DNA of 64,000 nt from the human T2T-CHM13v2.0 reference genome, Homo sapiens: positions 31,168,001 through 31,232,000 of the forward strand of contig CP068257.2 of the NCBI GenBank assembly GCA_009914755.4, given 5' to 3'. Each line of letters begins with the position of its first letter. The first letter of the stretch is position 1. Shown here one piece after another: positions 45,670 to 47,215 of the stretch. Below the pieces are notes generated by a model. It was given only the letters and a program-made list of their open reading frames with translations. It had not been told where the DNA came from and made no database searches. The translations under genes were made by a program, and so were the position numbers.

Positions 45670-45800
45670 TAATCTTTACTTTTAACCTCATGAGGGAGAT
45701 ATTATTATCACCTCCATCTTCTAGATGAAGAATTAAATAATTGAATACCTAAGTGAATAAACTAAATAACTGAGGCCACACAGCTTGGTCCAGTACTTTT
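45670..45800 (-). mobile_element. MIR SINE fragment (antisense), abutting arm A of the inverted repeat
   Basis: tttaacctcatgagggagatattattatcacctccatcttctagatgaagaattaaataattgaatacctaagtgaataaactaaataactgaggccacacagcttggtc resembles the reverse complement of MIR (cctcacaacaaccctatgaggtaggtactattattatccccattttacagatgaggaaactgagg...ccaaggtcacacagctagtaag). Confidence 0.5.
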
Positions 45801-46085
45801 TGCCTTTTAGGCATGTTTATGAATCTGTGAGATCTATTTTTAGAAGTTAATTACCAAGTCTACTTTTTTTCCAGTTAAATGCCTAGGTCATGGTTATTGT
45901 TGTTCTGTTACTTATGAAGTAAAATAAGCAGAATAAAACCCAAAAAACACAAAATAACCTATTTGTTATTTTGAATCTTTTAAAATATAACATCAACAAT
46001 ACATTTTTCACATTAAAAAATCTATTGATTTGAGAAAACTGTACTTAAACCATGGCCCCAGGGTGAACGAATGGTGAGCGGGAAT
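45786..46085 (+). repeat. arm A of a 300-bp inverted repeat (palindrome); partner arm at 46618-47215
   Basis: tggtccagtactttttgccttttaggcatgtttatgaatctgtgagatctatttttagaagttaattaccaagtctac...catggccccagggtgaacgaatggtgagcgggaat is the reverse complement (about 93 percent) of 46618-46697 plus 46997-47215. Confidence 0.85.
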
Positions 46086-46617
46086 AAAATAAAATTCAAA
46101 ACCATGTCCCCTGACTGCACAGCCTCTTTGTTTTTTGTTTTTGTTTTTTTCCAACCTCATCATTACACTCCTTTCACATAGGACTCAGTGCCCTGGCCCC
46201 ATTTTTAGTTAGAGAACGGTGGCTCTTGTATAGATCTGCCATGGGCTTGTACTGGGTAAAACGATGAAATTTGTCTTGGGGGCTTTAGACGTCTCTTTCT
46301 GGATCCCTTTCTCTAAAAGATAATATTTACCACAGCAGGATGCCGCTAATACTGAATCAAAGCAATATGTAGCCAAGCCATGAGCAGCTAATATCCTAAC
46401 CTGAGCCCTGCCTGGAAGTGGCAGCCGTGTTAGCCTCTCTGGTGCTTTATGTTGAATGGGTGCTCGGGGTGAAGGGACTCTGGCAGCCTTCCCAGAAAGG
46501 GAGATGGCAAAAGAGAAAACAAACACCTTCTAGAGGTTTCTGGGGAACTTAGGGAATCCTAGAAAACCTGTGTAAGGTAATGCAAGTACGTTTCTCCTCC
46601 CATCTGTTTTAATTGGC

Positions 46618-47215
46618 ATTCCCACTCACCATTCATTTCACCCTGGGGCCATGGTTTAAGTACAGTTTTCTCAAATCAATGGATTTTTTAATGTGAATTT
46701 TTTTTTTTTCTTTTTGAGACGGAGTCTCGCTCTGTCCTCCAGGCTGGAGTGCAGTGGCGCAATCTTGGCTCACTGCAATCTCTGCCTCCCGGGTACATGC
46801 CATTCTCCTGCCTCAGCCTCCCGAGTAGCTTGGATTACAGGTGCCTGCCACCATGCCTGGCTAATTTTTTGTATTTTTAGTAGAGACGAGGTTTCACCGT
46901 GTTAGCCAGGATGGTCTCGATCTCCTGACCTCGTGATCTGCCCGTCTCGGCCTCCCAAAGTGCTGGGATTACAGGCATTAGCCACCACGCCCGGCCGAAA
47001 AATGTATTTTTGATGTTATATTTTAGAAGATTTAAAATAACAAATAGGTTATTTTGTTTTTCGGGGTTTTTTTCTGCTTATTTTACTTTATAAGTAACAA
47101 AACAACAATAACCACAACCTAGGCATTTAACTGGAAAAAAGGTAGACTTTGTAATTAACTTCTAAAAATAGATCTCACAGATTCATAAACAAGCCTAAAA
47201 GGCAAAAAGTACTGA
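46618..47215 (-). repeat. arm B of the 300-bp inverted repeat (299 bp of arm sequence, split by a 299-bp Alu insertion)
   Basis: attcccactcaccattcatttcaccctggggccatggtttaagtacagttttctcaaatcaatggattttttaatgtgaa [Alu] gaaaaatgtatttttgatgttatattttagaagatttaaaataacaaataggttattttgtttttcgggg...cctaaaaggcaaaaagtactgaacca. Confidence 0.85.
46698..46996 (-). mobile_element. Alu (young-looking), antisense, inserted into arm B of the inverted repeat
   Basis: ttttttttttttctttttgagacggagtctcgctctgtcctccaggctggagtgcagtggcgcaatcttggctcactgcaatctctgcctcccgggtacatgccattctcctgcc...ggattacaggcattagccaccacgcccggcc. Confidence 0.9.

What the first reader, a model, noticed from the sequence alone, without database searches (positions are those of the whole stretch)
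45786..47215. 300-bp inverted repeat (palindrome) with 532-bp spacer; one arm later split by an Alu
45786-46085 is the reverse complement (about 93 percent) of 46618-46697 plus 46997-47215. This gives a 1.4-kb structure that could extrude a cruciform or, if transcribed, fold into a roughly 300-bp hairpin with a 0.5-kb loop. This geometry resembles long-hairpin endo-siRNA precursors or palindromic non-autonomous DNA transposons. Neither arm looks like Alu, L1 or LTR sequence. The arms begin beside MIR fragments, so part of each arm may be MIR-derived. The Alu in arm B (TSD gaa/gaaaaatgt) postdates the duplication. Arm divergence of about 7 percent makes the duplication old but younger than MIR.
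Basis: seen in the sequence. Interest (0 to 1): 0.5.

Follow-up and report, generated by a model that had tools for sequence, protein, structure and literature searches.

The report
Old local inverted duplication, not a transposon
A 300-base stretch of primate DNA was copied backwards and pasted about 530 bases away into an ancient MIR repeat, and an Alu later landed in the other copy; this is an ordinary, probably functionless scar of DNA replication or repair.

Summary
Arm A (45785-46085) is the reverse complement of arm B (46618-46697 plus 47000-47220): 283 of 300 aligned bases match (94.3%), with 2 indels and BLAST E = 3e-94. The ends are sharp and the spacer is 532 bp. A full-length AluY-like element (46698-46996) splits arm B.

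The new finding is that arm A interrupts one old MIR SINE. The MIR stops at 45785 and resumes at 46094-46129, co-linear and on the same strand (0 of 3000 shuffles reach that score). It does not resume after arm B. The 1.4-kb unit is therefore not one transposon.

Neither arm, nor the whole unit, has a target-site duplication, poly-A tail, terminal inverted repeats or TG...CA ends. No other copy lies in the 64 kb.

My best reading is a templated inverted insertion (replication template switch, MMBIR or break repair). It copied the arm-B region into the MIR roughly 20-35 Myr ago, and the Alu inserted soon after.

As RNA the region would fold into a hairpin of about 280 bp. No known RNA family matches the arms, and transcription could not be tested. 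A DNA cruciform is unlikely with a spacer over 500 bp.

This is an ordinary feature of low interest.

The parts
45604..45785 (-). Left part of an old MIR SINE (minus orientation). It ends at consensus ...CACACAGCT, exactly where arm A begins.
45785..46085 (+). Arm A, 301 bp, 31% GC. I infer it is the derived copy, inserted into the MIR.
   Evidence: It is the reverse complement of arm B at 94.3% identity. It is bounded on both sides by the two halves of one MIR.
46086..46093 (.). An 8-nt A-rich filler (AAAATAAA) between the inner end of arm A and the point where the MIR resumes.
   Evidence: Read directly from the sequence. It is not matched at the inner flank of arm B.
46094..46129 (-). Right part of the same MIR. 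It resumes about 19 consensus positions after the break.
   Evidence: ATTCAAAACCATGTC-CCCTGACTGCACAGC aligns to the remainder of MIRb(-): 30 of 36 aligned bases match, score 34, 0 of 3000 shuffles reach it, and it falls in the top 0.1% of 75-nt windows across the 64 kb.
46086..46617 (.). Spacer of 532 bp, 44.5% GC. It is unique sequence that begins with the MIR remainder.
   Evidence: It has no other copy in the window. Its 105-aa ORF (46209-46526, minus strand) has no homologues. The inner flanks are not complementary to each other.
46618..46697 (-). Arm B, inner 80 bp. I infer arm B is the source copy.
   Evidence: 95% complementary to 46007-46085.
46698..46996 (-). Full-length AluY-like SINE (body 46716-46996, T-rich tail 46698-46715) inserted into arm B after the duplication.
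   Evidence: Divergence is 7.8% overall and 3.6% outside CpG sites. Rfam reports SRP/Alu-type hits. Arm A has no such element.
46997..47220 (-). Arm B, outer 224 bp. The first 3 nt (GAA) duplicate 46695-46697.
   Evidence: 93.3% complementary to 45785-46009.

Best explanation
This is a fixed and most likely neutral local inverted duplication, made by a templated insertion and not by a mobile element.

Proposed sequence of events:
1. About 20-35 Myr ago, in a catarrhine or hominoid ancestor, a nascent or broken 3' end inside an old MIR stopped at what is now 45785.
2. It switched to the complementary strand about 0.85 kb downstream, at 47220.
3. It copied about 301 nt backwards, to 46618.
4. 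It returned to the original template at about 46094. Up to 19 nt of the MIR were lost and 8 nt of filler were left behind.
5. The result is arm A, a reverse-complement copy of the arm-B region, 532 bp from its source. This is the '1-4-3-2' geometry of the four-point template-switch model, and it also fits an MMBIR or fold-back type of templated insertion.
6. An AluY then retrotransposed into arm B.

Consequences that I infer but did not test:
- If the region is transcribed in either direction, the RNA can form an imperfect duplex of about 280 bp, with perfect runs up to 42 bp. That would be a substrate for ADAR editing or dsRNA sensors, as inverted Alu pairs are.
- The long spacer makes DNA cruciform or lagging-strand hairpin formation, and so fragility, unlikely.

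What is shown: the repeat, its sharp ends, the split MIR, the absence of mobile-element hallmarks, and the relative ages. What is inferred: the copying direction, the molecular pathway and the neutrality.
For: - The arms are 94.3% identical with sharp, coincident ends.
- Arm A sits exactly between two co-linear, same-strand halves of one MIR. The left half ends at 45785. The right half starts at 46094, scores 34, and no shuffle of 3000 reaches that score. Arm A is therefore an insertion whose limits equal the limits of the repeat.
- The flank after arm B does not continue the MIR (score 14; 1317 of 3000 shuffles do as well).
- Arm B's own flanks show no interrupted element.
- There is no 2-10 bp target-site duplication, poly-A tail, terminal inverted repeat or TG..CA at either arm or around the whole unit (sequence read).
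- No further copy of arm or spacer lies in the 64 kb.
- Relative ages are consistent. Arm K2P is 0.059. Two LTR pairs in the same window give 0.106 and 0.096. The AluY is 3.6% diverged outside CpG sites.
- The mutation class is known. Type 1-4-3-2 template switches create inverted repeats and make up 31% of human-chimp events (PMC5453318).
- MMBIR templated insertions are inverted copies of a nearby template and occur as germline variants (PMC8421209).
- Fold-back inverted duplications leave spacers of 0.77 kb and more (PMC3907307).
Against: - No outgroup sequence could be obtained, so neither the ancestral state (intact MIR, single arm) nor the copying direction was seen directly.
- Junction microhomology is not evident. 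It is 0-1 nt at the outer junction, and the inner junction carries an 8-nt filler.
- The copied tract (301 nt) and the jump (about 0.85 kb) are roughly ten times larger than the short-range template switches and MMBIR insertions catalogued in the cited papers.
No Dfam or RepeatMasker run was possible, so an unrecognised repeat family is not formally excluded.
- The Alu's non-CpG divergence (3.6%) is no lower than the per-arm divergence (about 2.9%). The two events are therefore close in time, or the arms were partly homogenised by gene conversion.
Confidence: 0.7

Rival explanations
1. Each arm is a separate copy of one mobile element of about 300 bp. They would be either two independent insertions or a local hop in inverted orientation.
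For: - Both arms have the same limits, and arm A is demonstrably an insertion with those limits. That is what a discrete mobile unit would give.
- A weak 42-nt similarity (76-79%, E = 3e-4 to 4e-3) between the arms and 29465-29506 hints that the sequence may descend from an old repeat.
Against: - There is no target-site duplication, poly-A tail, terminal inverted repeat or LTR terminus at either arm, although at about 3% divergence per copy these would still be legible.
- There are no other copies in 64 kb, whereas the window holds about 30 Alus.
- Two independent members of a family landing 532 bp apart needs a very high copy number.
- To my knowledge, no non-Alu, non-L1, non-SVA, non-LTR family was active in primates at this divergence. 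DNA transposons stopped about 37 Mya (PMC2800235).
- Arm B's flanks show no interrupted element.
- The extended alignments to 29.3-29.5 kb are AT-rich noise.
Confidence: 0.1
2. The whole interval 45785-47220 is one non-autonomous DNA transposon with 300-bp terminal inverted repeats (a foldback or long-TIR element) that inserted into a MIR.
For: The geometry fits: long inverted termini around an internal region, with the left end abutting a truncated MIR.
Against: - The MIR resumes inside the unit at 46094-46129 and not after arm B.
- The flanks carry no target-site duplication (CACACAGC on the left, TGTTACTT on the right; no TA or TTAA).
- There are no other copies.
- The arms (K2P 0.059) are more alike than two LTR pairs in the same window (about 0.10). 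The youngest human DNA transposons stopped about 37 Mya (PMC2800235).
Confidence: 0.03
3. Whatever its origin, the repeat now acts as a hairpin RNA gene, either an endo-siRNA or miRNA precursor or a regulatory ADAR or dsRNA-sensor substrate.
For: - The predicted RNA fold is very stable. With the Alu removed the MFE is -582 kcal/mol, against -276 when arm B is shuffled.
- There are 281 arm-to-arm pairs, and they persist with the Alu present.
- Perfect runs reach 42 and 41 bp.
Against: - No Rfam family matches the arms, even at E <= 10.
- The substitution pattern is ordinary (12 transitions, 5 transversions) and favours neither strand for G-U pairing.
- The 94% identity is explained by age alone.
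- An Alu insertion into one arm was tolerated.
- Long-hairpin siRNA loci are documented mainly in Drosophila and, to my knowledge, in mouse oocytes, not in human somatic tissues (literature list).
- Transcription is unknown.
Confidence: 0.05
4. The repeat is an assembly or cloning artefact, such as a chimeric fold-back read.
For: Fold-back artefacts do create inverted duplications in sequencing libraries.
Against: The arms differ at 17 substitutions and 2 indels, and one arm carries an old, mutated Alu. An artefact would give near-identical arms.
Confidence: 0.01

Closest known systems
Template-switch mutations of the four-point model, type 1-4-3-2 (Loytynoja and Goldman 2017, PMC5453318)
   Same: [quoted passage not shown] This creates a new inverted repeat with a spacer. 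The order of switch points here (45785, about 46094, 46618, 47220) is 1-4-3-2.
   Different: Catalogued events are tens of bp long and lie within tens of bp of their template. Here the copied tract is 301 nt and the jump is about 0.85 kb. The return junction also carries an 8-nt filler and a loss of up to 19 nt.
MMBIR or polymerase-theta type templated insertions (MMB-TI; PMC8421209)
   Same: The insertion lies close to its template and in inverted orientation to it. Such insertions are found as germline variants that accumulated during human evolution.
   Different: The defining junction microhomology is not evident here. The published detection window is at least 10 bp, up to read length, with the template within 100 bp.
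Fold-back inverted duplications with a disomic spacer (PMC3907307)
   Same: The architecture is an inverted duplication around a single-copy spacer.
   Different: Those events are megabase-scale and terminal, with spacers of 0.77-70 kb, and they pass through dicentric chromosomes. This one is a 301-bp interstitial insertion with both junctions local.
Inverted Alu pairs as dsRNA sources
   Same: Both give arms of about 300 bp that can pair within a transcript. This locus would behave in the same way if transcribed.
   Different: The arms here are not Alu and arose from one duplication, not two retrotranspositions. They are also more alike (94%) than most inverted Alu pairs.
Long-TIR or foldback DNA transposons and MITEs
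   Same: Both have inverted termini around an internal segment.
   Different: Here there is no target-site duplication, there are no other copies, and host MIR sequence continues inside the unit.

Membership tests
Templated inverted insertion (template switch / MMBIR) | The inserted tract is the reverse complement of nearby sequence. | tested here: met
   301 nt at 94.3% identity, 532 bp from its partner.
Templated inverted insertion (template switch / MMBIR) | The recipient site is recognisable as once-continuous sequence interrupted by the tract. | tested here: met
   The two MIR halves at 45604-45785 and 46094-46129 are co-linear on the same strand; 0 of 3000 shuffles reach the score.
Templated inverted insertion (template switch / MMBIR) | Microhomology at the switch junctions. 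| tested here: inconclusive
   There is 0-1 nt at the outer junction and an 8-nt filler at the inner junction. About 3% divergence per copy since the event blurs short homologies.
Templated inverted insertion (template switch / MMBIR) | The derived state is absent from outgroup species. | not testable with these tools
   No primate or mammalian genome is accessible. K-mer scans of metagenome and prokaryote collections gave nothing relevant.
Templated inverted insertion (template switch / MMBIR) | Size range of catalogued events (tens of bp, template within about 100 bp). | tested here: not met
   The tract is 301 nt and the jump is about 0.85 kb, compared with the ranges in PMC5453318 and PMC8421209. 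The mechanism is analogous but the scale is larger.
Non-autonomous DNA transposon with long TIRs | Target-site duplication flanking the unit. | tested here: not met
   The flanks are CACACAGC and TGTTACTT, with no TA, TTAA or 8-9 bp duplication.
Non-autonomous DNA transposon with long TIRs | Host sequence is continuous across the whole unit once it is removed. | tested here: not met
   The MIR continues at 46094 inside the unit and not at 47221.
Non-autonomous DNA transposon with long TIRs | Multiple dispersed copies in the genome. | tested here: inconclusive
   None in the 64-kb window. The whole genome and Dfam are not available.
Interspersed repeat present as two separate insertions | Insertion hallmarks at each copy (target-site duplication, poly-A, TIR or TG..CA ends). 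| tested here: not met
   None is present at arm A or arm B.
Interspersed repeat present as two separate insertions | A match to a curated repeat consensus. | not testable with these tools
   No Dfam or RepeatMasker.
Hairpin RNA / endo-siRNA or miRNA precursor | A stable long inverted-repeat fold. | tested here: met
   MFE is -582 kcal/mol against -276 for the shuffled-arm control, with 281 arm-to-arm pairs.
Hairpin RNA / endo-siRNA or miRNA precursor | Transcription and 21-23-nt small RNAs from the arms. | not testable with these tools
   No expression data are available.
Hairpin RNA / endo-siRNA or miRNA precursor | A match to a described RNA family. | tested here: not met
   Rfam 15 gives nothing in the arms at gathering score or at E <= 10. 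The only hits there are Alu-derived.
Cruciform-forming fragile palindrome | Arms adjacent or separated by a very short spacer. | tested here: not met
   The spacer is 532 bp, or 831 bp counting the Alu. A 52-bp spacer already abolishes stalling in eukaryotic cells (PMC7999016).

The most novel reading that the evidence does not exclude
The duplication created a lineage-specific (catarrhine or hominoid) long hairpin that is transcribed. It would then be either diced into endo-siRNAs or a young miRNA, or heavily A-to-I edited. That would make it a large-scale example of a structured RNA locus born de novo from a single template-switch event.
Probability: 0.04. Interest if true: 0.5.

Novelty: new member of a known kind. 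Interest (0 to 1): 0.13.

Why it matters
On its own it matters little. It is one more fixed inverted duplication in repeat-rich, apparently non-coding primate DNA.

It has some modest value:
- It is a clean worked example in which a split MIR shows that one arm is an insertion. That lets a templated-insertion origin be separated from a transposon origin without an outgroup.
- It suggests that template-switch or MMBIR-like events of several hundred bases, larger than those usually catalogued, contribute inverted repeats able to form hairpins.

If the region lies in a transcribed intron, it would add a non-Alu dsRNA substrate of about 280 bp.

Tried and rejected
- Search for related copies. blastn with word size 7 of the arms, spacer and flanks against the 64-kb window found only the partner arm. 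A weak 42-nt hit at 29465-29506 did not extend convincingly.
- Public-collection scans with two 22-23-mers that are identical in both arms. Metagenome contigs gave 0 and 0. Prokaryote genomes gave 0 and then one 25-nt chance match in an Akkermansia MAG with no flanking similarity.
- Attempts to reach primate orthologues through ORFs. The 105-aa spacer ORF has no homologues among 5.8 billion proteins. Exact look-ups of that ORF and a neighbouring one found nothing. Human non-coding ORFs are evidently not in those collections.
- Rfam at gathering score and at E <= 10. Nothing was found in the arms.
- MIR similarity of the arms. It is not significant. The 20-nt inner end of arm A looks MIR-like by eye but does not pass the shuffle test.
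- Extension of the repeat into the flanks. None was found.
- Arm B as an insertion into a second MIR. This is not supported.
- Gene context. The long ORFs of the GC-rich 58-60 kb stretch have no Pfam match, and the stretch is CpG-poor. A six-frame survey gave 28,000 residues of unconvincing ORFs, so no exon was identified and the transcriptional status remains unknown.
- The Pace and Feschotte 2007 paper is not held in the library. The date of the last DNA-transposon activity is cited through PMC2800235 instead.

Full report
**Observation**

The window is primate DNA, presumably human. It holds about 30 Alus (13% of the sequence), MIR fragments, an L1 ORF2 fragment and LTR pairs.

The reported inverted repeat is real. 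The repeat finder gives four collinear inverted blocks covering 45785-46085 against 46618-46697 plus 46997-47220. blastn gives 93.3% over 225 nt (E = 2.8e-94) and 95% over 80 nt (E = 9e-31).

With the Alu and one copy of GAA removed, the strict arms align over 300 columns. There are 17 mismatches (12 transitions, 5 transversions, 4 at CpG) and 2 indels. Identity is 94.3% and K2P distance is 0.059.

The repeat ends sharply. Neither the outer nor the inner flanks are more complementary than shuffles, apart from two unrelated MIR fragments further out. The arms are AT-rich (26-37% GC) and the 532-bp spacer is 44.5% GC.

**The Alu**

The element at 46698-46996 is a full-length Alu on the minus strand with an 18-nt T-rich tail. 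It fits an AluY consensus best (259 of 281 matches). Of its 22 differences, 12 are CpG transitions, and non-CpG divergence is 3.6%.

Arm A lacks the Alu, so it inserted after the duplication. Only GAA is clearly duplicated at the insertion site. The right-hand flank, GAAAAATGTATTTTT/GA, ends in a canonical L1-endonuclease-like T-run, so a longer target-site duplication whose left copy lost 7 nt is possible but unproven.

**What the arms are not**

- The arms show no significant similarity to MIR or to Alu.
- No Rfam family matches them, even at E <= 10. The only hits in the interval are Alu-derived (SRP, mir-1268, mir-3135).
- Neither arm has internal terminal inverted repeats, a poly-A tail or TG...CA ends.
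- No target-site duplication of any usual length flanks arm A, arm B or the whole unit.
- No other copy of the arm or spacer lies in the 64 kb.
- One 42-nt stretch resembles 29465-29506 at 76-79% identity, but it does not extend convincingly. At most, the duplicated sequence descends from some old repeat. Two independent members of an old family would not be 94% alike with coincident ends.

**The key finding: arm A splits a MIR**

A minus-oriented MIR aligns from 45604 to 45785 and stops at consensus ...CACACAGCT, exactly at the first base of arm A.

The stretch just past arm A, 46094-46129, matches the part of the MIR consensus that should follow. It starts 19 consensus positions after the break, on the same strand, with 30 of 36 aligned bases identical. 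Its score of 34 is reached by none of 3000 shuffles. Only 0.1% of 75-nt windows across the whole 64 kb score as high, and the others that do are evident MIRs.

By contrast, the sequence after arm B (47221 onward) does not continue the MIR (score 14; 1317 of 3000 shuffles do as well). Arm B's own flanks do not form an interrupted MIR either.

Two conclusions follow:
- Arm A, plus an 8-nt AAAATAAA filler, is an insertion into a once-continuous MIR, and its limits are the limits of the repeat.
- The 1.4-kb unit as a whole is not an insertion.

**Origin**

The simplest history has six steps.
1. The arm-B region was native sequence.
2. A replicating or repairing 3' end inside the MIR switched to the complementary strand about 0.85 kb away.
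3. It copied 301 nt backwards.
4. It returned close to where it had left.
5. Up to 19 nt of MIR were lost and a short filler was left behind.
6. An AluY later inserted into arm B.

This geometry is type 1-4-3-2 of the four-point template-switch model. [quoted passage not shown] It also matches the signature of MMBIR templated insertions, which are inverted copies of a nearby template and occur as germline variants (PMC8421209). Fold-back inverted duplications likewise leave a single-copy spacer (PMC3907307).

There are three differences from the catalogued events. The tract and the jump are about ten times larger, junction microhomology is not evident, and there is a filler. A reverse-transcribed local transcript captured at a break would give the same picture and cannot be separated from the DNA-templated route.

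**Age**

Arm K2P is 0.059. Two LTR pairs in the same window give local clocks of 0.106 (40946-41192 / 42646-42892) and 0.096 (53743-54227 / 60307-60785). The duplication is therefore about 0.6 times as old as those LTR elements.

With primate neutral rates of about 1-1.3e-9 per site per year (my own knowledge), this gives roughly 20-30 Myr. That agrees with the AluY that must post-date the duplication.

The Alu's non-CpG divergence (3.6%) is not lower than the per-arm divergence (about 2.9%). Either the two events were close in time or some gene conversion occurred between the arms.

This age argues against a DNA-transposon origin. Hsmar1, among the youngest human DNA transposons, was active only until about 37 Mya (PMC2800235).

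**Consequences**

As RNA, either strand folds with 281-282 arm-to-arm pairs.
- With the Alu removed, the MFE is -582.5 (plus strand) or -579.2 (minus strand) kcal/mol, against about -276 when arm B is shuffled.
- On the plus strand the pairing survives with the Alu left in (281 pairs, MFE -677.7 kcal/mol).
- Perfect runs reach 42 and 41 bp.

If the region is transcribed it would be a dsRNA of the kind made by inverted Alu pairs. Transcription could not be assessed, and no exon or promoter was recognised in the window.

The substitution pattern is ordinary and favours neither strand for G-U pairing, so nothing suggests selection on the hairpin.

As DNA, cruciform or lagging-strand hairpin formation is unlikely. 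Inverted Alus with a 52-bp spacer no longer stall eukaryotic forks, and the Okazaki initiation zone is only 100-200 nt (PMC7999016).

**Verdict**

The transposon, MIR-derived-arm and cruciform readings are not supported, and the endo-siRNA idea is untested.

The best explanation is an ordinary, probably neutral, templated inverted duplication in a primate ancestor (confidence about 0.7; about 0.6 for the sub-claim that arm A is the copy).

The decisive missing evidence is a Dfam or genome-wide copy count and the orthologous locus in outgroup primates. Interest is low.

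Noticed in passing
window 42028-42162 (-), with 40946-41192 and 42646-42892: A full-length SNORA70-type H/ACA snoRNA sequence (Rfam RF00156, 142 bits, E = 2e-28) lies between two 90%-identical direct repeats 1.7 kb apart that look like the LTRs of a MaLR-type element. It has no poly-A tail after it. It may be a dispersed snoRNA copy inside a retroelement.
   Followed up: partly
window 53743-54227 and 60307-60785: A pair of 485-bp direct repeats, 89.5% identical and 6.56 kb apart, probably the LTRs of an ERV-like provirus. 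They enclose the GC-rich but CpG-poor stretch at 58-60 kb, whose long ORFs have no Pfam match.
   Followed up: partly
window 45390-45570: A MER5-like hAT MITE (recognised from memory) lies just upstream of the split MIR. Rfam gives a weak mir-544 match at 45454-45504 (20.9 bits, E = 1). mir-544 is, to my knowledge, derived from this kind of element.
   Followed up: no
window 46695-46715 and 46997-47011: The Alu insertion site is atypical. Only GAA is duplicated, although the right flank GAAAAATGTATTTTT/GA ends in an L1-endonuclease-like site. Either the target-site duplication is 3 bp, or it was 15 bp and its left copy lost 7 nt.
   Followed up: partly
window 47340-47480 and 45660-45735: A plus-oriented MIR fragment (score 54-57, 0 of 300 shuffles reach it) lies 150 bp beyond arm B, in inverted orientation to the MIR that arm A splits.
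   Followed up: yes
window 7330-7730: A compound microsatellite, (GT)n followed by a long (CTTT/CTTC)-type tract, is visible in the ORF translations.
   Followed up: no
window 21562-22487 (+): ORFs with L1 ORF2 C-terminal-like translations indicate an L1 3' fragment.
   Followed up: no
L001:1948-1972 (Akkermansia MAG contig JBGVMR010000028.1): An exact 25-nt match to the outer part of the arms, with no similarity beyond about 50 nt. This is a chance match and not related sequence.
   Followed up: yes
window 12477-12715 versus 27582-27327: A 76%-identical inverted pair, 15 kb apart, of some non-Alu interspersed repeat.
   Followed up: no
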